A stretch of 63,994 nucleotides of DNA, filler included, from Guillardia theta CCMP2712 (lineage: Eukaryota; Protista; Cryptophyta), in assembly GCF_000315625.1 (NCBI RefSeq). It is 5 parts of 5 records of this genome, joined end to end, with 100 filler letters (N's around TTAATTAATTAA, not from the genome) between each part and the next. Parts side by side here need not be neighbours in the genome. Positions count along the whole stretch, not along the records: positions 1 to 25,889 come from NW_005434422.1; 4 more parts are not named here. The stretch is one strand, 5' to 3'. Position numbers and translations under genes: made by a program. Under the pieces are notes generated by a model. That model was given only the letters and a program-made list of their open reading frames with translations. It was not told the origin of the DNA and searched no databases. Of the stretch, positions 5,445-47,890 are shown piece after piece (position 1 is the stretch's first letter; the number at the start of each line of letters is the position of its first letter).

Positions 5445-6724
5445 GATCTCTCCGGGCGGCCGTGACCGGTCAGCGGACCGTGTCAGCAGGCCCGTGACAT
5501 GTCAGCCGGCTGACAGGGGCCGTGACCCGGCTGACAGGCTCACCTGACCGGTCACGTGACACATCACGTGACCGAGACAAGACTTTTTTATATCGCAGAT
5601 CCAAAAACCCATAGGACATTTCTCCCAGGGGGAAGAAACCCTCCCTTGACCCCCCTGTTTCTCGACGGATCCTGCCGGCCGGGCCCGTCAGTAGACCGAC
5701 TGCAGCCTTCAGCCCCGCCTCAGACCCCCTGGAGGCCCGCCAGGAGGCTAAGTGTCCGGAGATTGGCCGGGGGCCCGATCTCTCCGGGCGGCCGTGACCG
5801 GTCAGCGGACCGTGTCAGCAGGCCCGTGACATGTCAGCCGGCTGACAGGGGCCGTGACCCGGCTGACAGGCTCACCTGACCGGTCACGTGACACATCACG
5901 TGACCGAGACAAGACTTTTTTATATCGCAGATCCAAAAACCCATAGGACATTTCTCCCAGGGGGAAGAAAACCTCCCTTGACCCCCCTGTTTCTCGACGG
6001 ATCCTGCCGGCCGGGCCCGTCAGTAGACCGACTGCAGCCTTCAGCCCCGCCTCAGACCCCCTGGAGGCCCGCCAGGAGGCTAAGTGTCCGGAGATTGGCC
6101 GGGGGCCCGATCTCTCCGGGCGGCCGTGACCGGTCAGCGGACCGTGTCAGCAGGCCCGTGACATGTCAGCCGGCTGACAGGGGCCGTGACCCGGCTGACA
6201 GGCTCACCTGACCGGTCACGTGACACATCACGTGACCGAGACAGGGTATTAAATCTTGCAGAGCCAAAAACCCATAGGACATTTCTTCCAGTGGGGAAGA
6301 AAACCTCCCTTGACCCCCCTGTTTCTCGACGGATCCTGCCGGCCGGGCCCGTCAGTAGACCGACTGCAGCCTTCAGCCCCGCCTCAGACCCCCCCGGGCG
6401 GCCGTGACCGTGACCGGTCAGCGGACCGTGTCAGCAGACCCGTGACATGTCAGCCGGCTGACAGGGGCCGTGACCCGGCTGACAGGCTCACCTGACCGGT
6501 CACGTGACACATCACGTGACCGAGACAAGACTTTTTTATATCGCAGATCCAAAAACCCATAGGACATTTCTCCCAGGGGGAAGAAAACCTCCCTTGACCC
6601 CCCTGTTTCTCGACGGATCCTGCCGGCCGGGCCCGTCAGTAGACCGACTGCAGCCTTCAGCCCCGCCTCAGACCCCCTGGAGGCCCGCCAGGAGGCTAAG
6701 TGTCCGGAGATTGGCCCGGGCCCG
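5445..6724 (+). repeat. 332-bp satellite array, ~4 monomers including one diverged, deleted unit near 6240-6420
   Basis: The monomer resumes on + immediately after an inversion junction at 5443-5444. Confidence 0.97.
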
Positions 6725-8439
6725 TGGAAACAGGTTATGAGCCTCCCGACAAAATGCCAGTGTGGCGCTTGAGCCGAGGGGTCGTGGGGAGGTATCATAC
6801 TAAAATGATATGGGAGAGAAGCCGGGAAGAACAAACTTGCAACGTATTTATACGTATAGGATTTTTTTCGAGGTCGAAACTCAACTGGAAATTGAGTTGA
6901 AAATCCAGGGTTTTTCTACCTATAAACCAGTTCATGTACTAATTGATCGGAAATCTCTCCAAAAAGTCCTGATTATGTCTCTTTGCTTTGGATCGGCCTG
7001 ATTGACATCCTTTGGGCATATTCCGGGCCTCTCCGGCGAGCTCCAGGCACGAGGATTACAGCACTGGAGGCTCTGAAGCATCCCTTCCTCATTAGTGCTG
7101 TCAAGTAAACCGTCTCTACCCGTAGCTTTCTCCTTCCTCTCCTCTCATGTCCTCCTCGCCCTCCTGCCTTCCTCGCTAGTGGTCTTGAGTAAACAGTCTC
7201 TCCTCCGGCATCTCCTCTCGCAGCGATCAGGCATATCAACTAGCCTGGCCTCCCAGGCGTCCATTTCCCTTCCAACCCCTCCCCTCTCCTTCCCCCAGCC
7301 TCTCAAACTCCTCACCTCCTCACAAATGACACCGCCATATTACAATAGGTTGGGAGAAGCCTCAAAAAACGCAATCATGGCAAAGCAACAGGAAGTCTCT
7401 TGAAATATGTTTCATATTCAACCGACGAAGCATTCAGGTAAAGGAAGCTAGGGCGTCAACACAACAAGGAGAATCGAATTTCCTTTATGTCTTCGAAGGT
7501 TGCTTCTCTGATCGGTTCCCTTCATGTTTCCCTTCTTCTGGAAGTGAACAACTAGCACCTATAGCTGATGAGTGCTTTGGTACGCAAGTGACACATTCAA
7601 CCTACTATAGGTGTGATTCTCAGCCATGTCCCCTCAATGTTAACTCCTGAGACGAGAGGGATAAAGAACTGAGGAGGTTTGAAGAGTTGAAAAGAGGAAC
7701 CGGAATCAGGCGCATGTTCAGGGAATCGCAGGAGATTTTTGTCGAGTATGAGTCGTCTTTCTACAGTTGGATCAATGTAGACTCGGGGCTACAGTTTCCG
7801 CAGAGGGCAATTGAAATGGAATACATTCGTGAAGAAGTGAAGGAAAAAATTCAAGAAGAATTCAGGCTCATCTGTATCAAGTCGTTGAGAATAGTCAGAA
7901 TGATGTTTTCTTTGAACATGGAATAAAAGTACCTGAATACGCTGAACGATTGTCGATATTCAGCCATGATCATGGCAGTCAATGCATTGTTTCCAGAATA
8001 ACTTTTGTAATTGCTTCGATCAAACTTCCCATGCCATGATCAGATGACTACAAGGTTCAGAACAAGCCTACGTCGTAGAGGTTTTCTTCCATCAAGCGAG
8101 GTTCAACGCTGTTTGTTACTCTCATATTGCATAATTAGAGAATACAAGAACAGACAATCGATGGACAAATGATTTCCCTATCTTAGGCCTTGTTTGGTTT
8201 GTCAGGAACAAACAGCGTACTGAGAACAATTGCAATCAATCTTCCTTCCATCGCCACCGGCATGATGAATTTTCGCTGAGTCCAATTTATAGTTTGAACT
8301 ATAAACCTGACAGAAAAAAAATGTATAATACATTTATTGAAACCTTGCCTAGACTACTTCATACATCGTGCAATTTCCTTTCACATGTACACGGATTTTT
8401 AAGGCCAACAAAAGTCGTCCGGGAGGGTTTAGAATTATC

Positions 8440-9294
8440 ATGAAACCTATTTATTCAATTATATATTTGTTGGTTGGACTTTTCTCAAGTCAACTGAACC
8501 GATTATTCTTCGAAATCTCTGCCAGACACGAAGATTACACAAAGTTGACCATCAATGGGTATGCATATTACAATTACAGCCTTGTTTATGGTCATGTACA
8601 TATAGCAAAAACAGCAGGGACAAGTTTGAATGGTATGATGGCGTGCAAGTACGAACGAGTATGTGGTCATAAAGGCTATTCGTATGACATCGTTCAATCG
8701 ATGAAAAGGCTGCGTGCGGGCAAACCAAGGGATGTTTATTCTCGTTTGTACGAATCATATGATCGTCAGCGAGTGCCATCTCAAATAATGGATGAAATCG
8801 GATATGAGGACTGTGACTGGATAAGTGCAGAAAAGAATGCAATGTGGTGGTCTCGGTTTGAAACTTGGCCAAGAAATGTAGAATTGCACGTTCCTTGCAG
8901 AGATCCTATTGATCATCTGTTGTCACAGTGTAATTTTAAGAACATTTCCTTTAATTGTCGTTCTCACATTTCACTTGGTATTCAAAAGTGTCTTATCCAT
9001 ATCAGGCGTTTTGACTACCAACTGAAACAATTGAAAAATGTGAGACTGAAATGCTTTCAGTACGACAAAATCGATGCGTACATAATGTATATGTCCTCGC
9101 GATTACAATCCAAACGCTTTCCATCGAAATATCTGTTTAGGTCCACCAATCAAGTAAGAAATAAAACAAAAGAATGTCTGACTTTTAACTTTACTCTTGC
9201 TGAAGCTGTACGTCGACTCCTGATATCCAGTGTCAGTTACTACTCGTTCTGTGAAAAATGTATGAGATCAGACCAACAACTTCCATTAGGATGA
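8440..9294 (+). CDS. Sulfotransferase-fold protein with N-terminal membrane anchor
   Basis: HVHIAKTAGTSL matches the 5'-PSB loop (H-x-x-K-T-A/G-G-T-S). CRDPIDHLLSQ matches the 3'-PB R-D-P..S motif. The hydrophobic N-terminus starts at ATG 8440. Intronless and AT-rich. Confidence 0.75.
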   Translation: MKPIYSIIYLLVGLFSSQLNRLFFEISARHEDYTKLTINGYAYYNYSLVYGHVHIAKTAGTSLNGMMACKYERVCGHKGYSYDIVQSMKRLRAGKPRDVYSRLYESYDRQRVPSQIMDEIGYEDCDWISAEKNAMWWSRFETWPRNVELHVPCRDPIDHLLSQCNFKNISFNCRSHISLGIQKCLIHIRRFDYQLKQLKNVRLKCFQYDKIDAYIMYMSSRLQSKRFPSKYLFRSTNQVRNKTKECLTFNFTLAEAVRRLLISSVSYYSFCEKCMRSDQQLPLG

Positions 9295-10068
9295 TTGTGA
9301 ACAGTCAGAATCCATGTTCTAATTTAGTGTTTCTGGGGCCATTCGAAGGGCACAGCTGAGAAAGAATGTTGAATTCAGGAAATAAGAATTATCCGACAAT
9401 ATATCAATTCTCTCTTGAGCACCTGTAAATACTGTTTCGCTGTGAATTTTTTCATAAGTTGTATGCTTCCAGACGTCCAAATGTAATTATGTGTCATTTT
9501 CTCGACACCTTTCTGATAGGATATGTTTACTGACTTTCTGTCTTTCTTAAGTAGGTGTCCTAGGCAGTCTCGTTTCTTAGGAAATTAGATTACTTACTTT
9601 TCTTTATCTTTGACGTTGATTTGATATAAGTATCGTTGAGTTGTGCATTGCTCTCACCCGCTTGCTCTTTGGTTTCTTGACGGGATCACTACGTGTGTCA
9701 ACACTGGATCGAGAGATAGTTGTAGGAAGTTTTCCTAACATTTTGGTACGCGAAGGCCTGGTTTTCCTCTCGGAGTTGTTGTGTTGAAAGAAGTCGTTCA
9801 AGAAAACATGGATAGAACGAGCATTCAGTCGGGTAGCGTTGTCTCGGACTTCATGAGTCGAAGCATGTCACGGTTGGGCAGCTTTGTGAAGGAGACATTG
9901 AATGGGTCAGCCGAGCCGCGTTTTCCTACGGTGACAGGCATGTCGCCGCAGTCACATGCGTACGACTGTCATCCAGCAGGAGGCTGTCGTATGTGACGAC
10001 AGTGTTGATAGTGGTCGTACTTATCACACCTCGAAGATTCTCGAGTGGACCTTCAAGCGCAGTTCAAT

Positions 10069-10512
10069 AAGAACTCACGTTGGATTTCTCTACTAAGAGG
10101 GAAAGCGGTGAAACAGAAGGAGATCTAACTCTCTTTTATTTCTTTCACACACACCCACAATCGTGGAACACACACGAAAGGGGAAGAGGACCACCTAGCT
10201 CTGACGAGTTTCATCCTTTTATAGCTTCAAGGAAGGAGCCAGGGGTGCCGTCTCTTGGCTACAGAAAGGAGGGGTGTCCTGTCCTTAACAAGAACTCACG
10301 TTGGATTTCTTTACTAGGAGGGAAAGCGGTGAAACAGAAGGAGATCTAACTCTCTTTTATTTCTTTCACGCGCGCACACACACACAATCGTGAACACACA
10401 CGAAAGGGGAAGAGGACCACCTAGCTCTGACGAGTTTCATCCTTTTATAGCTTCGAGGAATGAGCCAGGGGTGCCGTCTCTTGGCTACAGAAAGGAGGGG
10501 TGTCCTGTCCTT
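10069..10512 (+). repeat. Tandem duplication of ~220 bp
   Basis: AAGAACTCACGTTGGATTTC...GGGGTGTCCTGTCCTT occurs at ~10069-10286 and ~10290-10512 with several mismatches. Confidence 0.9.
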
Positions 10513-10831
10513 GGAAGTTGACAAGCATCCCTTCTGACCTTCGAGAGGATACCATGCTCTCTCGCAGGGAAGAGAACCCCGTCCTTGCATGGCAGCAAGC
10601 TGCTTCCAACGGGTCGTACTCCACAAGACGCACCCCTTCTGTTTACCTTGTAAGTCCCCCACGGGTACACGGTTGCTGCAACAAAGGCCTCCACAGGGGT
10701 CCTTTCAGCAGATTCACACTGGAGTAGAGTATCCTGGGTCATCCAGGAGAAGTCAGCTTCAAACACGAGTACGAGACAGCCAACTGTCCTTTCATCCTGA
10801 TAGGCCTTTGTCTGACTCGGGCTCGGTTCCT

Positions 10832-11729
10832 ATGAGCTCTGACATCCAAGTCATATTCGATCAGCACTGCGACCCGAGGGTGGGAAAGATCAAGTCCGTG
10901 CAGGACATGAGGAAGATCCTCGACAAACAGGTGCGCAAGATCCTAACCGAAAAGCTCTTCCCCAACTACATACGTGAATACAACGACCACACACTCAGCA
11001 AGGATGATGTCACCCGGATCCTCTGGGGTGACTGACTACAAGGAAACCAAGACGGTCGTGTACGCGTACCTCTCCGAATTATTCCGGATACAGCAGGAGG
11101 TGAAGGAAGATGTGAATGCCTTCTGCAGCGAATCGTTCTGGGACAAGGCCGCCATATACGTCTTCAGGGGCCACAACGATGCTGACTATGAGAAGCCGTA
11201 CTTCGACCACAACAACTTCGTGGCCTCCACCTCACTCCGCTTCTCCATCGCCGCCAATTTTGCCAAGCCGCTGCACACGTCTGCCTACAAGAGGAACATG
11301 CCAGGCGATACGGGCACGGACAAGAGCACGGTGTACATCTACAAGATGTCCGGGGCATCCAACGTGCTCTTCACACAACCCTTCACCAAGCATGTCGAGT
11401 ACGAGATGACATTGTTCCCAGACGATCAATCGGCCTTCCTCGAGTCCTTGACACGGTACATGGATTTCAGCCTAGAGGAGATTTTTGATCGGGTCCACGC
11501 CAACCCACAGCCCAGATTGCACGTGCCCCCGATCGAGACTGTGGAAGAGATAAACTCCAACAACGTGAACGTCTATCATAACAACCTCATCATACTCGAC
11601 TCAGATTTGGCAAAGGTTTCGGACAGGAATCTCCACAAAGCGGGAAAACAGTGGATGTTGTACGATTTCTTCGCAAATGTACCACTTGTAGCTTGTCTGC
11701 TGACGTTTTACCTTCAGAAGTGGTCGTAA
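10832..11729 (+). pseudogene. R-S-E clade mono-ADP-ribosyltransferase-like gene with a 4-bp frameshift
   Basis: Motifs in canonical order: YVFRG, FVASTSLRFSIAANFA, TVYIY and EYEMTLFP. Removing one GACT from GACTGACT (11030-11037) fuses ORFs 10832-11035 and 10974-11729 as ...ILWGDYKETK... Confidence 0.7.
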
Positions 11730-11933
11730 AGCCTCCGGAACAAGTGACAAGATACTGCTTATAAAAACATCGACGCAAGAGAACTCTAACTGCTTTGTCC
11801 TCTTCCTCTCTCGCGATGATCCCTTGCCACCAACCATTTGAACAACTGATTTTTGAACAAGGTTCTTTCGGGAGATTCTGTCGCTTGTCGTGTTGTAAAC
11901 CGAAACATGTAATGGAAAGACTCCAATATCAAA

Positions 11934-13976
11934 TCACGGTCTTAGCACTATAAGAAGGCCGGATCCTCGATGCATTTGCAACTGAACTACGGAGGTTGCA
12001 TTACAACTTAAGCGTGATGATATGATTGCAGGCCAACGATTGTTGGGCACATTTGCTAGTCCTTGATGACTTTCAATTGTATCTTCGTACATAGTAACAG
12101 AAAACGTGCGATTAGAACAAAACTTTCCAAGATGAATCTCAACTTTTTGTGTCTCTTGAGCTACTAAAACTGCAATGAACCATCGACCTTGTTTATCTTG
12201 TCTGGCAATCGCATAGGATCTCATGGGCTCAGCAAGTAGAATCTCGGAACGCATCCACGTATCCGGCAATTCCTTGTATAAACTCACGATCAAACCATCC
12301 CCGCGATGGGTCATAGCTGAAGGATGCAAATACCAGAAAATATGCAACAGACCGTTGTGAAAAGCAAACGCACTGCTAAGCTGAAACATTAGCGACATCG
12401 AACGGTTTGACAGTCTGATCCATTCACTAGTGTAAGTGAAATCCATCCAGCCAGCATGTATCCTTGTGTAAGGCAATAACAAGACATATTCAGGAGAGAT
12501 GTGTTTGTGCTCGTCGCCGCACACGCCCTCACTCGAAATTATATTGGGATATGATCTCGATATGCCATACTCCCTATAATTGTCATGCACATTTACCATT
12601 AGTCCACGCTTAGCACATTCCTGGATGTAGCCAGTAATACGGCGCATATCTGAGTTCGAACCCATCTTGACAAATCCGAACTTAACACCAACAACCCCCC
12701 ATTTTGAAACTGTCTGAAATATTTTGAATGCTGCACGCAAAAGTGCGATATCATTCACATACACGAAGACACCCATGTTGTACATGCTTGCATACTGAAC
12801 GACATAGGTTATATTAAGGGCTAATCCACGTGGAAAAGGAGTAGGGCGCAATGGATCGCTATTCGAGTCGTACTCGCTCCCATACCATCCAGCGTCAAAA
12901 AGAATATACCTAGTCCCCGACTGCCGTGCTAGGTTGCGTATAATGGAAACCGAACCTTCTGTGGACAATGACATATCACGAATTACTTTTCCCGGCTTTA
13001 CAAAAGAATAATTGATCATCTTGTTTGGATTCTCACACAAATTACCAAGATGCCAAGACTCACTGTTTGAAATTTGAGCCAATGATTTGAAGCTCCTGCA
13101 CAGCATTATAACGACCCAAGGATACTTCGAGTCCTGCATACCTCCATGAAATTCCGCTCTCAAACCTTTTGACAGAGTGTCCCCCTTCATTCTGAGCTTT
13201 ATATTACGAAATTCTGTATTGCAAGCTTCTGTGAGAAGCAGAGCTATTTCATTATTCGCAATAGTGAATGGGGTCATCTGATGTGTCCTTGACCAATACT
13301 TAGTCATGTTACATTTTGTATTAATGTTGCACGGAAATATACCAGTTTCATCACCACCATCAACCAATGCCTTTGTACTTGTAGCATCCCAAGTGGTAAA
13401 ATCAAGAAACACGAAGGGCATTGCTGATGTTCTTTGTAATGTATTTTGTCTAAAAAAACCAACAGATGATGATTGTGCTATAACATCATTATACATCCTA
13501 ATGGTATGAGTAACGTTGAAAGTGGATGACAGGAACAAGAGGTGCAACTCGTTGTATGAGCTGTGATATCTTTTGACGGGTCCAGAAATCGGAATCCAAT
13601 CAGAAGTCTTGGATTCCTCCAAAATATGCATTTTAAACATACACAAAGCTTTATCTACGCTAATTCCAACCACTCCTGTTTGGTGGATCTTACCCTTCCG
13701 TTGTATCCAAAAATGAATCAGCTCAGAGCAGGGAACTGGAATCTTGCGGACTTCCAATTCTAAGCGTAGTATGTTGTCTGGTGAGAACAAATTGTAAACT
13801 TTGCACTTAGTTTTTGATGTTGTAGAAGTGCAGCAGAGCCTGTTTATAAAACATTTCTTGTCCAATGGTATTACTCTACTATGACTCAGCATAAGCACAT
13901 AAAATTCTTGAATCGAGAAGACAAATGTAAGGGAGAAAAGAAGAAAATTCCAGTGAAATTTGCTTAATTTGTTCAT
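11934..13976 (-). CDS. Glycoside hydrolase family 97-like protein with N-terminal membrane anchor
   Basis: GH97 barrel motifs YILFDAGWYG, GVVGVKFGF, LMVNVHD, GISRSYPNIISSEGVCGDEH and LPYTRIHAGWMDFT, plus C-terminal YAIARQDKQGRWFIA. Intronless; first ATG at 13976. Confidence 0.85.
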   Translation of the reverse strand: MNKLSKFHWNFLLFSLTFVFSIQEFYVLMLSHSRVIPLDKKCFINRLCCTSTTSKTKCKVYNLFSPDNILRLELEVRKIPVPCSELIHFWIQRKGKIHQTGVVGISVDKALCMFKMHILEESKTSDWIPISGPVKRYHSSYNELHLLFLSSTFNVTHTIRMYNDVIAQSSSVGFFRQNTLQRTSAMPFVFLDFTTWDATSTKALVDGGDETGIFPCNINTKCNMTKYWSRTHQMTPFTIANNEIALLLTEACNTEFRNIKLRMKGDTLSKGLRAEFHGGMQDSKYPWVVIMLCRSFKSLAQISNSESWHLGNLCENPNKMINYSFVKPGKVIRDMSLSTEGSVSIIRNLARQSGTRYILFDAGWYGSEYDSNSDPLRPTPFPRGLALNITYVVQYASMYNMGVFVYVNDIALLRAAFKIFQTVSKWGVVGVKFGFVKMGSNSDMRRITGYIQECAKRGLMVNVHDNYREYGISRSYPNIISSEGVCGDEHKHISPEYVLLLPYTRIHAGWMDFTYTSEWIRLSNRSMSLMFQLSSAFAFHNGLLHIFWYLHPSAMTHRGDGLIVSLYKELPDTWMRSEILLAEPMRSYAIARQDKQGRWFIAVLVAQETQKVEIHLGKFCSNRTFSVTMYEDTIESHQGLANVPNNRWPAIISSRLSCNATSVVQLQMHRGSGLLIVLRP

Positions 13977-14046
13977 ATTCCCCAGAGTCCACTTCAATAA
14001 TTGCACTCCCTTTGAGAAAATAAATTAACTAAAAAATATGTTGCAA

Positions 14047-14897
14047 TGGCATAGAGTCGTGCATCTGAGAATGATATTGCTTGTTTTCGGATTCACGATT
14101 TTGGTTTTGCAAGGATTCGGTGGTCTTGCATTCGGCCCTAAAGACAGCAATCTCAGTTCACGATAACAGCAAACTCATCTTGCACTGAAACCTATAGTGT
14201 ATATCGTGTAAACGTTTTGTGTTGACAGTACCAAAATGATGTACACAAACAATCGTGTAAATTGCAATCTTGGTAAGAAATTTCGTCAAAATCTTCACAT
14301 TCACCCATTGAGTACTGACTGGAAGAGTCATTCTTGTAGACTGTTGGGAATCCTCCGCCAATCCAACACATTTCTTTTTCGGTATATACCAAGTGCATGT
14401 GTCATAGCATCATCTGAGATCATCAAAGCTTGGCTGCAAATGGATGGTATCAAGAGGATGTTTCTTGTCCCGCTCAAGTCAGATAGCTTCAATCATGCTA
14501 CATAGCTTGATGCACTTCATGACTTCAATTACCATTGATTGGTCGAAGGTTCACAACTACTTTGATTTTCCTCTTCGAAGCGCGATACTTCTTTGTGTAC
14601 ATGAAGCTTACTTACATCTTATGTATGGACCACACTTGATTTCGATGAATCGTACCTATCATGTCAAACTCGTTCGTCGATTCATAGGCTGCGAAATTTT
14701 CCAAGACGATCCTATCCTGGTTCCAGAGTTGGATTTTGTTTTCGCTGGGAAGGAACAGCATTACGAACTGTCTGCAGTTCTAACGCACTTATCAACAAAA
14801 TCAACGCTCTCGGATTCTCATGCGATTCCTCCACTACCAGTAGCAAGATGACATTTATTCAACAGCTTCAACTCTTCGAACAGTATGCCATAATCCT
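14047..14897 (+). pseudogene. Degraded glycosyltransferase family 61-like gene, cut before the HGA motif
   Basis: Hydrophobic N-terminal stretch, then several stops and frameshifts, then RVGFCFRWEGTALRTVCSSNALINKINALGFSC...KMTFIQQLQLFEQYAIILG. This resembles the GT61 'mtf.eQl.lf....iiiG.HGA' region. Confidence 0.45.
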
Positions 14898-16797
14898 CGG
14901 GTGCATCGCCTGCAATCAGGGGATCGTGGCCAGTGAGAGGACCGATTGCGCCTGCCTGCCGGGTTACACCGGTGCTGACTGTACGGCCTGCCCGGCGGGG
15001 TGGTACAAGGAGCTGTACGGGGACTCCCCCTGTATTCAGTGCCCGGCTGGCCTCTTCCAGCCCAGCACGGGTTCCTCGGTATGTAGGTCCTGCGGCATCA
15101 ACCAGTACTCCGGGGTGGCCGCTCTCTCCTGCACCCCGTGCCCCGCCAACACCATATCCAACGAGAGCAACCCGTCGATCTATGGCTGTGTGTGCAAGAT
15201 GGGGTACGGCGCGCTGGACCCGAACCAGTGCAGCCTGTGCGTCCCGGGCAAGTACAAGTCCTCCAACGCGCTGGAGCTATGCACCGACTGCCCTTCCAAT
15301 CGCGTGAGCCCCTACGGCAGCACCACCCAGTTCCATTGCGTCTGCCGGGCGGGCTACTACAGGGACTCCAACTTCTACTGCCAGCCGTGCCCGCTGGGCC
15401 TCTGGAAGGAGAGCGACGGCGATGCGGAATGCACGGCCTGCCCCATACACTCTACCACGCTGGTCAAGGGCGGTGCGGCGATCTCGGCCTGCCAGTGCGA
15501 GCCGGGTTATTTCGAGGCCGACGCACAGGTGTGCAGCCCCTGCCCCTCGTCCTTCTACAACCCGGACTACAACGTCTCTCTATGCAGGCGCTGCCCCGAC
15601 TTCTCCTACAGCCCGGTGGCCAGCAAGGAGATCACCTCCTGCCAGTGCTACCGCGGCTATGGTTGGAATGGAACGGCCTGCGTGGAATGCCCGGCTGGAA
15701 GTTACAAGTCCTACATGGGCGTGGGCTCCTGTGTCCCGTGCCCGGAGGGTTCGACCTCCCTGCCTGCCAATTCGGACGTGCTCAAGTGCTACTGCAAGCC
15801 GGGCTACACCGGGAATAACGGCGCCGTCTGCACCCCGTGCGACTACAACACATACAAGCCCGAGCCCTACTCCGGGCTCTGCAGCGCCTGCCCTCCCCAC
15901 ATGGTCACCGCAGGGAGAGGCTCTATCGATGTCTCCCAGTGTGTCTGCGACGTGGGCTATTACTACAAGACCTCGGACCGTGTGTGTGTCCCCTGTGGGA
16001 TAGGCACTTACAGGGATTCGCTGGGGCTCGCCTCCTGTATCACCTGCCCGAACAACCAGTCCACCGTGGGCCAGGCTGCTGCATCGGTGGCGGACTGCGT
16101 GTGCGGCGCCGGCTTCACGGGGAAGGACGGGGAGGCCTGCCAGGCCTGCATGCCCGGGAGCTTCCGGTCCTCTTCGGACAGCGAGCCGCTGAAGAACATC
16201 AATTATGCCAGCCTTTTCGCCCCTTCTGGTAGTATCCCGGCCATCGCACCGCGGTATAGGACCGTCGATGCCGTGTTCGTCTTCGATGTCGTGTTCCCCT
16301 CTAGCATACCACAGGGTATGAAGCTGCTGGAGTTCGGGGGGAGCGACGTGGGGGTGTGGATCGGGGTCGTGTCCGTGGGGGGTGCCTGGGTCATGAGGGC
16401 AAGGGCGGGGGATGGCTCTCAGACGATCACATCCGGCGTCTCCTACACTGGCCTGGCCTACGCGGAGAGTGGGGATTTCCCGAGAGACGACAAGAGCCAT
16501 CAGGTGGTATTCAGTGCCAAGATAACCCCTGGTTATGTGGCCGTGTGGATCGATGGCCATTATCTCATGCAGGGGTATTCCAAGTCTGGCCTCGAGCTCA
16601 AGACCTACCTATGGGCCAGCAGCGGCACGGGTGCATTCCTTGTTGCATCGAGCTCTTCTGTGCCAAGCGGCGAGGTGGCCACCGCATGGTCCAGCACCTC
16701 CGGGACGCTGTACCTCTACAATGGGCTTGACAAGATCGCCGAGCTCGAGTCGAAGCTCTGCAGCCCCTGCCCTGAGGGTGCGACTTCCGATGTTGCG
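14898..16797 (+). pseudogene. Internal fragment of a large Cys-rich surface protein (GCC2/GCC3, ephrin-receptor-like repeats) with a beta-sandwich insert
   Basis: About 8 repeats of C-x-C-x-x-G-Y...C-x-x-C-x-x-G-x-Y/W-K...C-x-x-C-P. GC-rich codons. No native start or stop: the ORF track's N- and C-termini come from unrelated neighbouring segments. Confidence 0.8.
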
Positions 16798-17264
16798 ATG
16801 GATGCGCAGACCATCATCCTCCACACCCCGTTGTCCTCGGCGCTGTTCTCCACGAGCCTCTTCATGCCGGTCAGGAGCCGCTCCTTGGTGCCCGCATCGT
16901 TGGTCTCGAGGGCGTCCGCGAACTTTGACATCACGGTGTCGAGCACCTTCTGCATGTCGTGCCTCGTCCTCTCGCTCAGCTTGCTATTCTTGTTGATGAG
17001 CTCCTCGACCTGCGACTTCAGCTTCTGGTTCACCTCCTCCAGGCTCTTGATGTGCTGCAGCACCGGGGTCATGTCGTTGAAGTTCCTGACCTCACCCTTG
17101 GCATCGACGACCTTGGTTGGGTTGGACCCTGCCGGCTGCCCCTGCACCTGGCCCTGCGCCTGCCCCTGCATGCCGCCCTGCGGCTGCCCTCCAAATCCAG
17201 CTCCACCCTGAAGGGTGTAGTTTGCAGCGTATCCGGTGCTGTGCGCGTTGTCCGCCTCCGATAT
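16798..17264 (-). pseudogene. 3'-truncated coiled-coil protein, possibly a viral capsid scaffold-like protein
   Basis: The frame is open from ATA-TCG-GAG (I/M-SEADNAHSTGY...) through a G/Q-rich tract and a heptad region (IKSLEEVNQKLKSQVEELINKNSKL) to GVWRMMVCAS, where it collides with the opposite-strand Cys-rich fragment. The function is inferred. Confidence 0.55.
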
Positions 17265-17312
17265 CCTCTTATCGCAACCTCGGTTTATTCCTCAAATATA
17301 CCCATAAACCTG

Positions 17313-17943
17313 CTACAATCTTATACCGCCCGCGGCAACACGGCCGGGTCGGTCCCCCTCCTCCCCCTCGTCCCTCCAAACCTCACACTCGACGATCCCT
17401 GACCGTATGCCCGTGCTGACCGACGCGCGGGGGCGCTGGGGACGGAAGGAGAGGATCACCAGCGTCACGCCTCCCCGGCACTGCACCCGCTGCATGGGAT
17501 CCAGCACGATGCTCTTCCGGTCCTCCTCGTCCTCATGGCACCTGCCCCTCTGCCGCGGCTTGAACCCCACCTTGAACACGGAGCTTGCGAACGAGAGTTG
17601 ACCGCCATCGCGGTTTTGCACGGGCCAGAACAGGAGATCGCCGTCCGCCTGGATCAAGGGACGGGCCCTCCTCACCCGCTGCAGGCCCAGCGCTGCGAAC
17701 ACGTTGTCCTCCACCCAGCCAGCCCTCCCCGACCTCCTCCCCTCGCCGAAGACGGGCATATGCCCCTCCGCACCAACCCGCGCATAGACCGCAGGACGTG
17801 CTCCCTGGCATCCCGCGGCGAGGTCGGGCTCCCGCCCCGTCGATGCAGGGAACCTGGATAAAGACCTTCAGGCTGATGGCCATGTCGATCCAACCAGCGG
17901 GCGGCCGCTCGATGTCGCCCCACGCGCATGCCAGGCACTCCAT
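17313..17943 (-). pseudogene. Hypothetical GC-rich intronless gene with a probable 1-bp frameshift near 17835
   Basis: MECLACAWGDIERPP...VPCIDG can be joined at a G-run to REPDLAAG...EGHMPVFGEG...LLFWPVQ. No family recognised. Confidence 0.4.
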
Positions 17944-18034
17944 GGCAGAGCCACTCCAAGCCCCTCCCCTTCTCCCGCCATCTTAGCCACTCCCCCTAAT
18001 GGATTTTACAGCTCAACCGTTGCGTTATTCAGAT

Positions 18035-18616
18035 TTATTTTACAGCAGGTGCATATCGTTGCCTAACTAGCTGCTTGAGATCCGAAGAGATGTAGCAATA
18101 GTAGATTCTCTCGAGCATTAAGATTAGGGTATCAACACCAAGTACCACAAGAGCAAAATATTGTTCTTGAAACGGATGGTCCAAATGCATGGCATAATCC
18201 ATTTCTTCTTTAAAAGCCAGCAGATGCCTTCGAACACGATCCAAAGACAACAGGCTGATCTCCACAGCATCGAGGTTATCCAGTTCTTCTTTGAAAAAGA
18301 CACTATACAGTTTCCCGTACGACATAGAATCACGTTTCATACGACGAAAAAAATCGCTCTGAAGATAAGCATCACACCATCTCAACAACGATGAAAATTG
18401 TATCCACATATCATACAAATCCATTATGGATCCTCTAAATATATAATACGAATCGCGCGGTATTGGAGCCATAAATCTCTTTTTTGTGTAGTTCCATTCT
18501 TTTTCAAATGCCTCCATACAGAGATGAAGCATTATCTCATTCACTCTATACAAGACGGATGGATCATGGCCAGCCAAGAACATTCGTTCACCGACATCCA
18601 TAATATCTCCGCACAT
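18035..18616 (-). CDS. Hypothetical 193-aa helical protein, weakly cullin-N-terminal-repeat-like
   Basis: Intact AT-rich ORF wedged between two GC-rich segments. LYDMWIQFSSLLRWCDAYLQSDFFRR loosely recalls cullin repeat 1. Confidence 0.5.
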   Translation of the reverse strand: MCGDIMDVGERMFLAGHDPSVLYRVNEIMLHLCMEAFEKEWNYTKKRFMAPIPRDSYYIFRGSIMDLYDMWIQFSSLLRWCDAYLQSDFFRRMKRDSMSYGKLYSVFFKEELDNLDAVEISLLSLDRVRRHLLAFKEEMDYAMHLDHPFQEQYFALVVLGVDTLILMLERIYYCYISSDLKQLVRQRYAPAVK

Positions 18617-18660
18617 ATTCCCAATAATAATAAAGCGTGCATCAAATAATTCGCGTTTGA

Positions 18661-21600
18661 TACTGCCGTCCGACGCGGCTGTGCGAGATCGCGTGCGGGG
18701 AGCAGTACGACGCCTTCAACTCCGCGCTGGTGCAGGTCTCGCAGGGCAAGGACCTGGTCTACAGCATGAACCAGACGGTGAGCGTGGAGAGCCGCTTCTT
18801 CACCTCCGACGGGCAGTACTACGGCACGAACAGGCTGCCGTTCGAGATCATGAGCCTGGTGGAGATGTCGGGCTGCAACCGGGTCTGCTACGGGGACGTG
18901 GCGCAGTCCGGGGCGCCGAGCCAGCCGGACCGGTGCATCTCCGCGGCCGGGCTGGACTCCGGGCTGAACGTCGTGGTGAAGGCCTACTGCCTCCCTGCGA
19001 GCCTGAAGACCGGCTTCCGGCCCTCCGCGACGGTGACCGACGGCTCGTTCCCCAACGCCATCGACTACAGCGTGCCCGGAAGCTCGGCCTGGTCGGCGGC
19101 GATCATGCGGCTGCAGTACGTGAGCGTGAGCCTCGTCGACTCGGTGGGGCACAGCAACATCCTGGCGGTGGCGACGGCGAGCAACGTCTCCCTGATCAGC
19201 GACCAGCGGCAGAGCTACACGCTGCTGCAGACGATCCCCAGCGCGCAGAAGGCCGTCCTGCTGACGGACGTCTACAGCATCGACGAGATGGTCACCTTCC
19301 CCGACGACGGGACGGCCGACATCTTCGTGCGGGCGACGACCACGGCGTGGGACGCTTCGGGCACCCCCTCCACGGGCCCGGTCTGCCTCCACATCGCGGT
19401 GGACACCAAGAAGTTCGCCACGCTGGCGGCCCTGAAGAGCTCCGCCTACACGATCCGCCGGTGCGCCGGCTCGGTCAACGTCTTCTCGGCCGTGCAGACC
19501 CCCTACGTGACGTGCCTCGGCCCCTCCTGCTCCGGGGTGGCGCTCTTCCCGACGGATGACGGGGCGCCCGTGAGCGTGTGCGACCGGGCGGGCGGGGTGC
19601 TGTCCTGCGTGCAGGCCGCGAGCGACGCCCACCTTGCCTCCGACCTGGGGCTCAACACGAAGCCGACGCCGCAGATCACGCTGACGCAGGACAACCTCTT
19701 CATCCGGCAGTCCCCCAAGCTGGCGCAGAGCTCGCTGTCGGGCTGGAACGGGGCCGGGCAGCAGAGCTCGATGACCATCTTCGCCGTGGCGGACCAGAAG
19801 GTGACGACGACTTGGCTGGCGGACGTGAGGCTCAACGTCGCCGCGGGGGCGTGGAATGGGACGCGCTCGTACTCGTCGTCCTACCAGATGCTCACGACCC
19901 TGAAGAAGAACTGCAGCGTGAGCGACTGCACGGGCTGCATGGGCTACCCGACGCTGCAGAGCCTCTGCTACGCCGCCTCCCAGTGCGCCGTGGCGAGGTG
20001 CATCGGCACGGAGGTCAACTTCCAGCGGCCGCTCTGCGCCATCGGCTCCATGGCGTCCAAGGTGATGCGGCAGTCCCTCCTCACGCTGCAGAACGTCTAC
20101 CTCATCTTCGCGCAGAGCATGGCGCTCATCGTGGATGCGTCCACGGGCCAGATCACGAACCGGGTGGTGATCGAGTGGCCGGACCAGGTCTTCTTCTCGG
20201 CCATGTGCGACATGAAGGACATCACCGTGTCGGCCGTGGGGGTGCTGATGTCGCTGGTGAACGGCATCACGATGAAGACGCAGGAGGTGCTCAGCACGGT
20301 CAGCGCGGGGCTCGTCCCGACCGACCCGAGCTTCAACGCGCGGGCGACGCTCTCGATGGCGAGCATGACCAACCTCTTCTCGCAGATCCTCCTGCTCCCG
20401 CTGTACGCGGCCGTCGCCGGCCAGAAGACCTTCGTCTGCACGACCAACAGCCTCACCGCCATCCTCAACACGGACCTGACGGGCAACTTCCAGCTCGTCA
20501 TCGGCGACCCGAGCATCCAGGCCGTGAGCGGGGACGTGGCGGGGGTCTGCCTCACGCAGGTCTTCCAGCAGGACGTGCAGAACCAGGCGCTGGGCGGCTC
20601 GTCCAACTCGCTCAACAACGCGGTGGCGCAGGTGAGCAACCGGCTGATCGGGGCGGGCTTCACGCTGGAGCTGGCGCCGGCCTACCACATGGTGGACGCC
20701 ATGCTGGCCTACGCTTCCGGGGTGACGTACGGGTTCATGGACGTCCTGCAGACCATCGACCAGAAGCACTGCAAGCTCCCCGACGTGACGACCGAGACCA
20801 TGTACCGCTGCGCCTGCGGGGACTACGCCCACAGGATCAGCACGGCGCGGAGGAACGAGGGGATCAAGCAGCAGGCCTTCTGGTGCACCGGCTCGCTGCA
20901 GCTACTCGGCACCGACGGCAAGCCCTACCTCGTCTTCAACCCCTACACGCTCGAGGAGCTGGCGTCGGCCTCGCGGGTGAGCATGAGCCAGTACCTCACC
21001 TGCGTGGGGACGGGCGGGTCCAACTGCCAGGCGCTCAAGCCCTCGCTCCCCTACCTGGAGCGGCAGGGGGTGGACCCCGGGACGGTGCTGACGCGCTGCC
21101 GCTCCAACTACGTGAACAAGGTGTGGGACTCGGGGGCGGCGTACCTGGTCAACTACCTGGCCTACTCCGACCTCGCCGGGGTGGGGTACCTGATCAACCA
21201 GTTCTACCAGCCCTCCTTCGTCCCCTCCTCGGTGCTGACCTGCCTGGTGCAGAGCCTGGCGCTGGGGACGGGGAACGACGCCTGCCTGCTGGGCTGGCTG
21301 ACGCTCATGAACGTCTCCCGCACCAACTACTTCCGCTACGACGTGGTGGGCTTCGTCTCCGACAACGCCGACTTCGCCGACATCGACGGGTGCGAGGTCT
21401 TCACCGGCCCCGCGCAGAACCCCGACCCCGCGGTGGCCTACGAGTTCGGCCAGTGCCTGAACAGCTCGACGGCCTCGCAGTGCCAGCTCCCCTACTACAT
21501 CTGGTCCGGGAGGACGTCCAACCGGGTGCCCGTCGCCTCTCTGCACGCGGTGAGCTACCCGCCGGGCTCCAGCACCCTGCTCGCCGCGGCGGCCAGCGAC

Positions 21601-23145
21601 CAGCTCGCCATCCTGCGGGAGGCCGAGGGCTTCTTCACCGACACCCTCCTCAAGTGGAGCAACCCGTCGCTGCAGGCCAGCTTCTTCTCCGTGGAGGGCG
21701 ACGTCCTGCACCAGTTCTTCGACTGCTACTTCATGGGGCCGTTCGCGTCGGCGGAGCTCTGGCCCTCGGGCGGCTCCAGGTCCCTGGGGACCATGCTGTA
21801 CTACAGGAACAGCCCCACCGACCGGACCTTCATGGTGCCGTCCGCCAGCTGCAAGCCGGGCGTCGACGCCTGCTGCCCCCAGGAGTCGCCCTTCTCGTGC
21901 GGCGGGCCAGCGAGGATGGCGATCGTTCATGGTTTCATTGACAAGCTCCGGAGCAGCCCGGGCTCGGCCACCAACTCCATCCTCGCCAACGCGGTGCAGG
22001 AGGGGGTCCGGGCCAAGCTCCGCGAGTTCAAGGACATCTTCACCAACCTGGCCAACTACGCCTGCGCCTGCCCCGACGGCTCCAACCGGGTGGACTGCTG
22101 CACGGCGGCCAACCCCGGCGGGTGGTCCTCCCCGGAGATGCAGGCCATCGACTACTCGATCCTCAGCAGCGAGGACGTGCTCGACACCATCTTCGACCTC
22201 ATCCTGCAGTACATCGACGAGGACGTCTACTTCAACCGCACCCTCTTCGGCACCTACGCCCCCGCGCTCACCTCCGCCCAGACGGCGCAGGGGAGGGACG
22301 AGGCGCTCTTCGGGCCGTTCGAGCCGGTCTCGACGTATGGTGAGTCCGAGGTGCTGGACGCGAGGAAGAACCACTCCCTGTGGGACGTGTGCGTGAACCT
22401 CGTCTCGCAGACCTTCGCGACGCTGCCGCTGGACCCCACGCTCTCCTCCTTCGCCACGGCGTCCGGGGCGGGGACATTCCAGTACGACCCCGTCGCCAGC
22501 CCCTCCTCGGCCCTCTTCGTCGACCAGATCGAGGAGACGGTGAGCAACATCCTGGGCAAGGCCAAGCTCGACTCCCCGTTCTACTGGGGCGTGGCGGGCG
22601 GCGAGCTGCGCTACATGCCCTCGTACAGCATGCGCTGCCGCACCCGCGGGGCGAGGGTGGCGCCGGTGACGAACAAGACGCTGGCCTCGGACAGGGGCCC
22701 GCAGATCCCGCTGGCGTTCGGCTCCACCTACGCGGTGTCCGGGTACCTGGCCACGCTGAGCCTGCCGGCCTACGGGCCCCAGGGGCAGAACGTCTCCGCC
22801 TTCACCCAGCGGTGCTACTGCGGCTGGACCACGCCGGACGGCAGCCTGTGCCGCATCGACCCGCTCGTGTGCGCGACGGCCAACCTCCAGTCGCTGACCA
22901 CGGTGGCGGCCGGCACGATCAAGGCGTTCCAGGCCATCTGCACGGCCGGGAGCTACATCACCTTCGACGACTGGGTGACGGTCTACCGGGTGATGGACGC
23001 CACCTGGAGCAGCGCCTGGACCTGCCCGGACATGCAGCTCTCCGACATCTGGGGGGTCGTCAACGACCTGCAGATCGACTACTGGGCCGCGGCCATCTCC
23101 GACTCGATCGTGACCTACAACTACAACTACCAGGACCTGCTGCAG
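18661..23145 (+). pseudogene. Internal ~1490-codon fragment of a giant Cys-rich, virus-like protein
   Basis: 4.5-kb uninterrupted frame with almost all third positions G/C. It starts mid-protein (YCRPTRLCEIACGEQ) right after an AT-rich junction and ends at an AT-rich filler. Cys clusters include CSVSDCTGC, LCYAASQCAVARCIGT and YRCACGD. Confidence 0.8.
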
Positions 23146-23318
23146 TTATAAACCGTTACACAGTACAACTGTTTGTACCACGGATTCGAATAAACAATTC
23201 ATTGCCGTTAAAACAAATGGACACGCCAGTTCAAAATTTGAAGCACCCCTACCACTGATATTACCGAGCAACACCCCTCAAAAACCATGGGGTACACTAC
23301 CACCGGTATCCTATGAGA
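23146..23318. other. ~170-bp AT-richer filler interrupting the giant gene
   Basis: Sharp composition switch on both sides, no GT..AG ends and no obvious target duplication. Contains ACCCCTACC. Confidence 0.7.
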
Positions 23319-24643
23319 TCGTGGCCGGGAGCAAGGCAGGGGAGGGCCTCGTCTCCGCTGGCGCCGCGCTGGGGGGGCGGGAGTACTGCGACGCCGTGCT
23401 GGACTACTGGCCGTCGGACTGGATCCACCCCAGCGGGTACCACGTGAGCACGGGATGCACGCACGACGAGACGGCCTTCCGCGCCTTCGACACTTGGATG
23501 TCCGTCGACTACGAGCGCCTGCGCAACGACACCCTGCTGCGCAACTACTTCGGCGGCGCCGCTACCTGCTCGGGGGCGTCGTACGGCATGCCCATGTTCG
23601 GGACCAACAACGCGAGGCTGCAGGCCAGGTGGAGGGACGGGCAGACCTACGACCCCACCCAGCCGGTCGGGGCGACGGTGCCCCCGGGTGCCGGGACCTA
23701 CACCCAGACGCTGGCGGCGGGGAGCTGGACGCAGGTGCCGACGCGGGGCAGGCTGGGCGACACCCCCGCGCCCAGCTCCGGCCTCCTGTACCTGTGGGTG
23801 CCGGGGATGGCGTCGGCGGCGCTCGTCTGGCCCATGGCCGGCCAGGACCTCACCCTGTACGAGCTGCCCGAGGGCACGGCGCCGGCGTGGGGCCCGCAGT
23901 GCGGCCAGCTGCCCCTGAAGACCTGCCTGAACGACACCGACTGCGGCTCGGTCAACGGGGCGAAGCTGGTGTGCCTGCGCTCCTGGTCCGAGTCCCAGCA
24001 GGCGCCCCGGGACGGCGTCTGCGCGATCCAGGGGGTGGAGCCGCTGGAGTGCTACCAGAACTACCACTGCGAGGGCAAGGGGCAGGTCTGCGGGGCCAAC
24101 GGGAGGTGCGTGGACGGCCGGCTTCTGATGCGGAACAGGGTGGGCTACTCCGCCGAGTTCCACGCCCACTCGGAGCAGTGCCCTGTGGAGTCGCTGGGCT
24201 ACTCCCCCTGGCAGAACGTCTCCGACTTCCTCTCCCGGCACGGCATGTGCGGCTTCCGCGACTGGTTCGAGTACAGCGACATGCTGCGGAGGGGGGCCAA
24301 CACGTCGGCGTTCCCCGGCCAGCTGGTGGGGCTCGATCCCAGGGCTCTGTGGTACAGCACCAGCCCCTACGTGGCCGCGTCGGAGGTGAGGAAGAGCCTC
24401 TTCGACCGCGAGATCCTCAAGGTCCACCCCCACACCTGCGACCGGGACTACGCCTACCTCCTCCCCTCCTGCGCCACCAACCCTTCCAGCGTGCTCGGCA
24501 CCGCCGGCAGCCCGGTCCCCAGCCCCTCCCAGGGCGAGACGATGCGGACGTGGCGGAGATCGGCGTCCGGGTCGGGCTGGGAGCTGGACATGTGCATGCA
24601 GGACCACCTCCCCCGCGAGAGGACGGGCTTCCTGTACCCGTAC
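23319..24643 (+). pseudogene. Further fragment of the same or a similar giant Cys-rich protein, truncated by the satellite
   Basis: Same strand, codon bias and Cys style (CDAVLDYWPSDW, CLNDTDC, CYQNYHC). It reads directly into satellite at 24644. Confidence 0.75.
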
Positions 24644-47023: not shown

Positions 47024-47890
47024 TGCTGCTTGCTGCTAGTCTGCGTGCGGACATGCAGCCGTTTGAGGCCGCTCCTCGTTTGACCAAGGAAAGGAACAGG
47101 ACCAAGTACAGAAATGTCATCAATGCACCTCCTCGTCTCCTCATCGATCCTGACGTCACCACTAACTCATCAGCCTGGAATGCTTGTAAATGGAATTCTC
47201 TCGTAAATAGACCAGCGCCAACAGTCTTTGTCAACAGATCCACGATTGCAGAATACAACAAGGCACAATTTCACCTTTCAGTAACCATCCATGTCAAAAA
47301 CCAGCTGCCAAGACGCTTCGAAAACAGAAATTTCATATGAAACCAACTATTCTCACAGGCTTTTTCATCATGTTCTCATCTCATCTACCTCGTCCCTCCC
47401 TCACCGCCATTGCGGCTGGCTACACTACCATCCCGCTATGCCCTCCCTTGTACCCCACCCATCTGTCAGATAACTACCCCCTGAATTATATAACCCTACC
47501 CCAATTCACACAATCCTACCCACTGTAGAATTTTGACACCCGTACATCATACCATAAAATGACTCAAAAGAACCGGTACTTGGAGTACCCTCACGTACTC
47601 ATGAGGATCAATCACCCCATTTGAATCAGCTCCTACCCCTACTTCCTGGGCTGTATCCATACCCCTACAGTTGACTTCAATTTCACCCGTAGTAATGTAA
47701 TTTACCACCCCTCGCTTAGCCCCACTACCCTACCTCCAACTTCCCTCCAAGTACCCCTCATCTCAATTCTTATCAAATACCCCACCCATCACATACACCC
47801 CTACCCACCAAATTCCTGGAAAATACCCTACCCCTGAAGAAACGTTTTATGACCCCCACCCCCAAGCGGCTCCTCCAGAATTGTGACGCC

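What the first reader, a model, noticed from the sequence alone, without database searches (positions are those of the whole stretch)
6725..24643. Satellite-embedded patchwork of truncated virus-like gene fragments: a possible archive or trap of invader DNA
Seen: about ten segments of alternating composition are butted together with no TSDs or spacers. Junctions at ~14897, ~16797, ~17990, ~18660, 23146, ~23319 and 24644 mostly cut through coding sequence. The GC-rich fragments lack their own starts or stops yet remain internally open and CpG-rich, so fragmentation was not followed by long decay. All recognisable genes are intronless, whereas host genes here have introns every ~50-200 bp. No polymerase, capsid or integrase is visible. 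Inference: this is not an intact provirus but a concatenation of kb-sized pieces from several sources, held in heterochromatic repeat. It is reminiscent of piRNA-cluster or EVE-based immune memory and could template antiviral small RNAs. Passive end-joining junk in a non-recombining region is the null model.
Basis: inference. Interest (0 to 1): 0.88.

Follow-up and report, generated by a model that had tools for sequence, protein, structure and literature searches.

The report
Shredded virus genes between satellite arrays
In a cryptophyte alga, an 18-kb stretch between two satellite arrays is a real patchwork of barely decayed foreign gene pieces and host repeats, likely broken mirusvirus DNA patched in by break repair rather than an immune archive.

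Summary
The patchwork is real. Contigs from DNA runs cross five internal junctions, and the core is single-copy. The host is a cryptophyte, likely Guillardia theta.

The two largest pieces are one gene: residues 1339-2838 and 3131-3580 of a 6,594-aa G. theta paralogue. About 290 codons are replaced by a 173-bp multi-copy repeat. Relatives are intronless ~5,900-aa ORFs in environmental contigs beside histone H3, Snf7 and ephrin/TNFR genes. That is mirusvirus-like, but no capsid hallmark was tested.

Three codon-composition classes are interleaved (GC3s about 0.35, 0.8 and 0.98). About 18% is host repeat. The pieces show little point decay, but not all are truncated: a GH97 gene is whole and covered by RNA-type contigs from three studies.

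The archive idea gains no support. Orientations are mixed, no single precursor is seen, and heterochromatin, small RNAs and recurrence are untested.

Best reading: recent viral DNA broken and rejoined by end-joining in a repeat-rich, rearrangement-prone region. This is a finely shredded variant of known degraded endogenous viral regions.

The parts
5445..6723 (+). Left 332-bp satellite array; it abuts an inverted array at 5444/5445
6717..7048 (.). One unit of a second multi-copy repeat; loose read ends suggest it is tandem elsewhere, about 345 bp (inferred)
   Evidence: about 786 X16 reads at 6832 against about 12 in single-copy DNA; loose ends at 6716 and 7048
7049..8386 (.). Multi-copy host repeats; other copies give polyadenylated RNA
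   Evidence: X1 depth 375-1266; poly-T loose end at 7396 in X15
8440..9294 (+). Single-copy AT-rich intronless ORF, 284 aa, apparently whole; sulfotransferase-like HIAKTAGTS motif (label recalled, no tool hit)
   Evidence: no hit
9544..10844 (.). Multi-copy repeat with a 226-bp internal duplication, ending in TGACA (LTR-like, inferred); it supplies the ATG at 10832 for the next piece and is followed by different sequence at other loci
   Evidence: (loose ends behind 10844 in X2, X6, X7, X9)
10845..11729 (+). GC-rich ADP-ribosyltransferase-like piece (a lead only), cut at both ends (3' junction near 11675, approximate), frameshifted near 11030, covered by RNA-type contigs
   Evidence: best cluster 0.92, 393 members, 95% viruses; TM by query under 0.5
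11934..13976 (-). Whole, intronless, AT-rich glycoside hydrolase family 97 gene, 680 aa, covered by RNA-type contigs
14038..14896 (+). Decayed AT-rich reading frame with six in-frame stops, head to head with GH97; its ATG at 14848 runs in frame into the ephrin piece
14897..16796 (+). Ephrin-receptor-like (GCC2/GCC3) Cys-repeat gene piece, cut at both ends
   Evidence: PF07699, E 1.5e-45, 8 repeats
16797..17264 (-). N-terminal two thirds of a conserved 207-239-aa coiled-coil protein (capsid-scaffold-like is a weak lead); start codon lost, C-terminal part cut
   Evidence: (57-89% identity)
17313..17943 (-). ORF-X, orphan GC-rich gene of about 210 aa, likely whole; the window carries a homopolymer error at 17834
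18035..18660 (-). AT-rich orphan ORF with its own stop; 5' end uncertain
   Evidence: no usable hits
18661..23145 (+). Giant Cys-rich predicted membrane protein gene, piece 1 (residues 1339-2838 of paralogue P0011)
23146..23318 (.). 173-bp internal piece of a multi-copy repeat, standing where about 290 codons of the giant gene are missing
   Evidence: (loose ends on both sides)
23319..24643 (+). Giant gene piece 2 (residues 3131-3580 of P0011), with a 13-codon in-frame loss, cut by the satellite
24644..25889 (-). Right 332-bp satellite array, inverted relative to the left one; ends at an assembly gap

Best explanation
The stretch is a read-supported, single-copy patchwork of truncated and whole foreign genes plus host repeat pieces, likely made when recently acquired mirusvirus-like and other foreign DNA was broken and rejoined by end-joining repair beside a satellite array. 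Steps: (1) DNA of at least three codon-composition classes is interleaved (shown); that these are separate donor genomes is inferred. (2) The giant gene comes from a family of large DNA viruses (well supported), most likely Mirusviricota (inferred from neighbouring genes and from known cryptophyte mirusvirus markers). (3) It was cut at both ends, lost about 290 codons that were replaced by a piece of a host repeat, and lost 13 more codons (shown against homologues). The host filler means this break was repaired in the host nucleus (inferred). (4) The cuts are recent, since point decay of piece 1 is likely under about 2% (simulation). (5) The pieces persist because the region tolerates rearrangement (inferred). 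The left half is likely transcribed from a host repeat and from the GH97 gene's own promoter, with no defence role required.
For: Junction bridging and single-copy depth. The two giant pieces are colinear on four homologues and on P0011. The family has 559 clusters at 50% identity, many of 5,700-7,300 aa, and 29 metagenome loci, five of them with one 5,814-5,980-aa open frame. Among 57 proteins from 14 of these loci, neighbours include histone H3 (3 loci), Snf7 (1), Tcp11 (2), ephrin/TNFR (2, one with subtilase), endonuclease I (2) and T5orf172 (1). Snf7 and histones are mirusvirus core genes and Snf7 is reported absent from nucleocytoviruses (PMC12768974 passage; PMC10132985 passages). An ephrin-like orthogroup occurs in 524 mirusvirus genomes (supplement rows). 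The G. theta assembly carries mirusvirus MCP, triplex 2 and protease (PMC10827195). In a quick tree, cryptophyte copies fall in two separate clades among environmental sequences. GC3s classes differ at p 6e-5 or lower, and classes are mostly uniform within. Other G. theta copies of the giant gene are also partial or internally deleted. Pieces of the GH97 region recur, rejoined, at a second locus in DNA and RNA-type runs. Simulated chance of staying open: 0.10 at 0.5% and 0.003 at 1% decay with indels; 0.11 at 2% counting stops only.
Against: No mirusvirus hallmark (MCP, terminase, portal, triplex) was seen in the window or among the 57 neighbours, and no mirusvirus profile set was available. 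IMG/VR scans gave no locus for the giant gene, the scaffold-like protein, a neighbour or the AT-rich ORF. GH97's best hits are rotifer, unnamed and bacterial proteins at 38% identity or less, none labelled viral, so the AT-rich class may not be viral. The middle GC3s class matches host phycoerythrin genes (0.81-0.83), so composition does not prove it foreign. Microhomology at the joins could not be shown without the donors. A whole GH97 gene with RNA cover suggests that part of the region is under selection rather than debris. The tree is a quick, unfinished search on chosen rows.
Confidence: 0.64

Rival explanations
1. The region is an antiviral archive: satellite arrays trap pieces of several invaders, and a repeat-driven transcript is cut into small guide RNAs.
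For: Pieces are recent and of several classes. A multi-copy repeat ending at 10844 heads the transcribed block and is followed by different sequences at other loci. One RNA-type contig (X6, 12365-16380) crosses the 14897 junction.
Against: Orientations are mixed, unlike the same-strand flamenco-like cluster (PMC7161354 abstract). RNA-type contigs form blocks of unequal depth (X7: 123, 61, 23, 5; X9: 28, 20, 26, 4), not one precursor. The other two inserts between arrays in this window are a single inverted-repeat element, not mosaics. Whole genes are retained.
Confidence: 0.07
2. The 18 kb is the cargo of a Foldback- or Pack-like mobile unit whose termini are the inverted satellite arrays and which captures gene pieces.
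For: The flanking arrays are inverted. Short pieces of the GH97 region are joined at a second locus. Satellite is joined directly to the 10024 repeat elsewhere (X1, 26-letter side, weak).
Against: The core is single-copy. No transposase was found. The array also flips at 5444/5445 and around the 2.65-kb element, so inversion is common here.
Confidence: 0.1
3. All the coding pieces come from one mosaic virus genome, or one large endogenous viral region, that collapsed by many local deletions and inversions; no separate donors are needed.
For: Ephrin-repeat genes lie near the giant gene in 2 of 29 loci. Chimeric viral regions may reflect unknown chimeric viruses (10.1101/2025.04.19.649669 passage). 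The host filler shows that local deletion occurred.
Against: GC3s of 0.35 versus 0.98 in interleaved pieces (p below 1e-60). Decay differs among pieces: six stops in 14038-14896, none in the giant piece.
Confidence: 0.13
4. The pieces are ordinary host paralogues, or the order is an assembly artefact.
For: G. theta holds paralogues at 51-58% identity, and Hanusia and Rhodomonas protein sets hold homologues. The window has homopolymer errors and gaps.
Against: Junctions are bridged in two DNA runs a decade apart, and X1 differs from the window at three homopolymers. Relatives lie in intronless gene-dense environmental contigs. Cryptophyte copies are not one clade.
Confidence: 0.06

Closest known systems
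Endogenous mirusvirus regions of cryptophytes (clade E03, including G. theta; PMC10827195, passages, section 7 and supplement rows seen)
   Same: Same host group; intronless virus-type genes inside a host scaffold; gene types common in mirusviruses.
   Different: Those were defined by MCP and other virion markers, none of which is recognised here. This locus is cut into 0.5-4.5-kb pieces of three composition classes.
Degraded and chimeric viral regions in eukaryote genomes (10.1101/2025.04.19.649669, passages seen)
   Same: Shortened ORFs, and mixed origin possibly from repeated insertion at one locus.
   Different: Here fragmentation far outruns point decay, host repeat pieces fill the breaks, and the joins are resolved to the base.
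Flamenco-like EVE/piRNA cluster of Aedes aegypti (PMC7161354, abstract seen)
   Same: Viral pieces mixed with repeats in a repeat-rich region, with some transcription.
   Different: That cluster is same-strand, makes one long antisense transcript and phased piRNAs. Here orientation is mixed, whole genes persist, and no small-RNA evidence exists.
Endogenous Polinton-like viruses of cryptophytes (PMC12220804, passages seen)
   Same: Foreign-composition inserts in cryptophyte genomes, some broken by nested host elements.
   Different: No MCP, A32 ATPase, integrase, own TIRs or TSD was recognised; the giant membrane-protein gene alone would fill such a genome.

Membership tests
Mirusviricota-derived endogenous element | HK97-fold MCP, terminase, portal or triplex in the element or linked to its genes | tested here: inconclusive
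   None by Pfam or PHROGs in the window or among 57 neighbours; these libraries hold no mirusvirus-specific profile that I could use.
Mirusviricota-derived endogenous element | Relatives lie in intronless gene-dense contigs with mirusvirus core genes (H3, Snf7) | tested here: met
   H3 in 3 and Snf7 in 1 of 14 loci scanned; core status.
Mirusviricota-derived endogenous element | Direct membership of mirusvirus orthogroups | not testable with these tools
   The supplement gave names and lengths but no sequences.
Intact provirus | Whole genes in one genome's order, with replication and capsid modules | tested here: not met
   Truncations, three GC3s classes, and no shared order with 29 loci.
piRNA-cluster-like EVE archive | Pieces in one orientation, antisense to a single long precursor | tested here: not met
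   6 pieces plus and 4 minus; RNA-type contigs in blocks of different depth; strand not given by contigs.
piRNA-cluster-like EVE archive | Phased small RNAs and Argonaute/PIWI machinery | not testable with these tools
   No small-RNA run was laid, no whole genome was held, and searches gave no statement on RNAi in this alga.
piRNA-cluster-like EVE archive | Heterochromatic marks on the cluster | tested here: inconclusive
   Two ChIP runs of unknown antibody give about 8-17x on the core, near the roughly 11x expected genome-wide if the genome is 87 Mb.
Polinton-like virus | DJR MCP, A32 ATPase, integrase, TIRs and TSD | tested here: not met
   No such Pfam or PHROG hit; no inverted termini of its own inside 6725-24643.
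Pack/Foldback-type cargo element | Inverted termini, multiple copies, TSD | tested here: inconclusive
   Arrays are inverted, but the core is single-copy; outer ends lie in arrays or an assembly gap.

The most novel reading that the evidence does not exclude
A major satellite and an LTR-like repeat together form a capture site where nuclear-replicating mirusviruses and other invaders are shredded, stitched and transcribed, giving a protist both a record of recent infections that could guide antiviral RNAs and a nursery for new genes such as the expressed GH97.
Probability: 0.08. Interest if true: 0.85.

Novelty: new variant of a known kind. Interest (0 to 1): 0.4.

Why it matters
Mirusvirus traces in cryptophytes and degraded or chimeric viral regions in protists are known. 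This locus adds a base-resolved, read-supported example in which breakage, not point mutation, destroys the viral DNA, and host repeats fill the breaks and lend a start codon. It also points to a large family (559 clusters) of ~6,000-aa predicted membrane proteins with no Pfam hit over the pieces tested, and a cryptophyte-associated branch of it. That branch could serve as a marker for viruses of these algae. If such mosaics recur at the satellite and yield small RNAs, it would be a sequence-based antiviral memory in a protist; nothing found here shows that.

Tried and rejected
No whole genome was held and the metagenome records behind the loci were not held, so recurrence at other arrays and hallmark genes on the 98-100-kb contigs could not be searched.

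IMG/VR scans gave no locus. The ART-like ORF gave one match but no locus was returned. The satellite motif had no match in viral contigs or GTDB genomes. Rfam found nothing in the window.

Structure work was uninformative. ORF-X folded poorly (pLDDT 34). The scaffold-like model gave no match under E 0.001; 9 of the 50 rows listed are phage scaffolding proteins, all at E above 0.6. PDB sequence searches gave no convincing hit for three ORFs and one neighbour. The Atlas gave no usable hit for the 18035 ORF. A cullin-like reading of that ORF is my recall and had no tool support, so I dropped it.

Expression: no RNA holder is on record; X6, X7 and X9 are RNA by guess only. No RNA-type contig covers about 17300-24640 apart from the repeat filler and the satellite edge. 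The three runs stop at 17134, 17159 and 17287, a weak hint only. Raw RNA run X15 shows 0-0.17 depth over 10868-24730, including GH97; only about 6% of it was read and it looks like a 3'-tag library, so I treat it as insensitive. Insertions at 17396 and 23408 appear only in X2 and were not accepted as corrections.

Microhomology at the filler joins is 1-4 letters at most and cannot be proved. Earlier findings of the scan gave nothing on this locus; three Polinton-like notes from other genomes do not bear on it.

Paper searches found no description of this locus or satellite; the library lacks most subscription papers. Supplement file 6 of PMC12768974 was unreadable. Supplements of the bioRxiv viral-region survey, which may list this scaffold, were not seen.
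Full report
HOST AND SETTING. The window holds two phycoerythrin alpha-chain genes (PF02972), so the host is a cryptophyte. The nearest named relatives of the giant gene are from Guillardia theta, Hanusia phi and Rhodomonas salina; G. theta is likely but inferred. Bases 1-25889 contain no gap. A 332-bp satellite (most copies 94-100% alike) forms arrays at 1-1033, 3700-5444, 5445-6723, 24644-25889, 34212-35154 and 37794-45648. The two arrays that flank the finding face opposite ways. Raw-read depth at 24710 is about 8,000-9,000 times the single-copy depth, if those ChIP runs are not enriched.

IS IT REAL? Yes. DNA run X1 (2021; the tool marks it as a possible source, but it differs from the window at three homopolymers) gives contigs 12365-16962, 16947-19215, 20744-23190 and 23289-24671 at 57-83x, with no substitutions. 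These bridge junctions 14897, 16797, 17990, 18660 and 23146. X2 (2011, another study) bridges 14897, 17990, 18660 and 23146. At 23319 and 24644 the contigs run only 28-30 letters into the repeat, short of the 31-letter bar; this is what such contigs do on entering a repeat (inference). Depth splits the stretch into single-copy DNA (8387-9543, 10845-23142, 23319-24643) and multi-copy repeats (6725-8386, 9544-10844, 23143-23318), the latter 17.6% of the length.

THE GIANT GENE. The two longest open frames match one protein in order: residues 84-1586 and 1891-2334 of Hanusia P0001, and 1339-2838 and 3131-3580 of the 6,594-aa G. theta model P0011, at 58% and 51% identity. About 290 codons are missing where the 173-bp piece stands; that piece is an internal part of a repeat that continues on both sides elsewhere (loose ends). 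Piece 2 also lacks 13 codons; 63 of 65 long homologues have 7-19 extra residues there. The family is large: 559 clusters at E 0.001 or better. Full-length members have about 3.5% Cys and hydrophobic segments near both ends (3 of 3 examined), so they are predicted membrane proteins, perhaps of the virion envelope (inference). In 29 metagenome loci the gene is often one 5,800-5,980-aa frame. I scanned 57 proteins from 14 of the 29 loci: H3 in 3 loci, Snf7 in 1, Tcp11 in 2, ephrin/TNFR in 2, endonuclease I in 2, T5orf172 in 1, and no capsid or polymerase hit. Histones and Snf7 are mirusvirus core genes, and Snf7 is reported absent from nucleocytoviruses (PMC12768974 passage; PMC10132985 passages). 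Ephrin-like genes form a mirusvirus orthogroup found in 524 genomes (supplement rows). The G. theta assembly has mirusvirus MCP, triplex 2 and protease (PMC10827195). I built a quick tree of 31 rows: chosen top hits, with 3 of 33 dropped for short coverage, and the careful search unfinished. It puts the window with Hanusia, G. theta and one metagenome protein (support 99), and Rhodomonas in another clade. Repeated capture from viruses fits this better than vertical descent. Mirusvirus origin is likely, not proved.

THE OTHER PIECES. 14897-16796 is an ephrin-receptor-like repeat gene cut at both ends. 16797-17264 is the first two thirds of a conserved coiled-coil protein, 57-89% identical to five relatives. 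It has lost its start codon and its C-terminal part; 'scaffold-like' is only a lead. ORF-X (17313-17943) has no hits and is likely whole. 10845 to about 11675 resembles ADP-ribosyltransferases and a mostly viral cluster in the Atlas (0.92, under the bar by structure). Its ATG lies in the upstream repeat, which ends at 10844 and is followed by different sequences elsewhere. The AT-rich class comprises a 284-aa orphan, a whole 680-aa GH97, a decayed frame at 14038-14896 and a 193-207-aa orphan. GH97's best hits are rotifer and unnamed proteins at 31-38% identity, then unnamed and bacterial ones. Synonymous GC3 falls in three groups: 0.34-0.37, 0.76-0.88 and 0.97-0.99. The middle group is like host phycoerythrin genes. 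Among all window ORFs of 50 aa or more, only the ephrin repeats recur near the giant gene in the 29 loci (2 loci; an antisense frame inside the giant gene also hit 2), so no colinear donor is seen.

AGE. Piece 1 has 20 A/T-ending codons of 1,494 and no stop. In a neutral simulation (300 runs each) it stays open with probability 0.10 at 0.5% and 0.003 at 1% divergence when indels are included, and 0.11 at 2% counting stops only. The six stops in 14038-14896 show that not all pieces are equally young.

EXPRESSION. Contigs of three runs from three studies, RNA by the tool's guess, cover 10815 to about 17300 in blocks. X7 depths are 123, 61, 23 and 5; X9 28, 20-24, 26 and 3-4. X6 has one contig 12365-16380 across the 14897 junction. 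GH97 and the ART-like protein are also held in a transcriptome-derived source. Strand is not known from contigs. Two ChIP runs of unknown antibody give near genome-average depth on the core (with the 87.1 Mb size). G. theta is reported to have H3K9me1- and H3K27me3-based heterochromatin (10.1101/2025.03.17.643675 passage), but its presence here is untested.

MECHANISM. Shown: interleaved classes, cuts through genes, a host repeat filling a deletion, inverted flanking arrays, further partial copies of the giant gene in G. theta models, and rejoined GH97 fragments at a second locus. Inferred: viral DNA present in the nucleus was broken and ligated by end-joining at or beside the satellite, which is itself prone to inversion and insertion, and local promoters drive part of it. 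The archive model predicts one orientation, one precursor, small RNAs and recurrence. The first two are not met (compare PMC7161354 abstract); the last two could not be tested.

NOVELTY. Cryptophyte mirusvirus elements and shortened, chimeric viral regions are in print. My eight paper searches found no description of this locus, this satellite or kb-scale shredding with repeat fillers, in a library that lacks most subscription papers. Verdict: a new variant of a known kind, interest 0.4; the archive reading has about 0.07-0.08 probability.

Noticed in passing
window 1031-3699 and 35155-37793: Two copies, 95.5% alike and in opposite orientation, of a 2.65-kb element with short inverted ends (CATAGCGTTG) and no ORF over 100 aa, both inserted in the satellite. 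One end of each copy meets the same satellite position (161/162), suggesting one insertion followed by rearrangement; no TSD is evident.
   Followed up: partly
window satellite unit, e.g. 38625-38956: The 332-bp unit carries two TCACGTG boxes in tandem (similar to yeast CDEI/E-box, recalled) and may have thousands of copies; a centromeric role is untested. No Rfam match.
   Followed up: partly
window 11854-11904, 12276-12289, 12306-12419: These three short pieces of the GH97 region are joined at a second locus, seen in DNA runs X1 and X2 and at higher depth than GH97 itself in RNA-type runs X6, X7 and X9.
   Followed up: partly
window 11934-13976: The GH97 has Gly where the retaining alpha-galactosidase chain 3a24 has Asp (the nucleophile, role recalled), as in chain 5e1q, and keeps the EGV motif; it may be inverting or inactive.
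   Followed up: partly
window 49210-49680 (-) and 47720-48250 (+): Two phycoerythrin alpha-chain genes, tail to tail; the first has two PF02972 domains in tandem.
   Followed up: partly
window 17834, 17960, 17965: Likely homopolymer errors in the assembly: reads or contigs show one more C (the last two also).
   Followed up: yes
L002:3245-4321, L005:4131-5273, L006:3599-4741, L010:3979-5079: A conserved 359-381-aa Cys-rich, likely secreted protein sits directly upstream of the giant gene in four environmental loci, in three of them after histone H3.
   Followed up: no
L012-L016, L020-L024: In these loci the giant gene is split into several frames, as expected for spliceosomal introns in intron-rich mirusviruses (inferred).
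   Followed up: no
window 11857: RNA-type contigs X7 and X9 run from the ART-like piece to 11857 and then continue in unrelated sequence; cause unknown.
   Followed up: no
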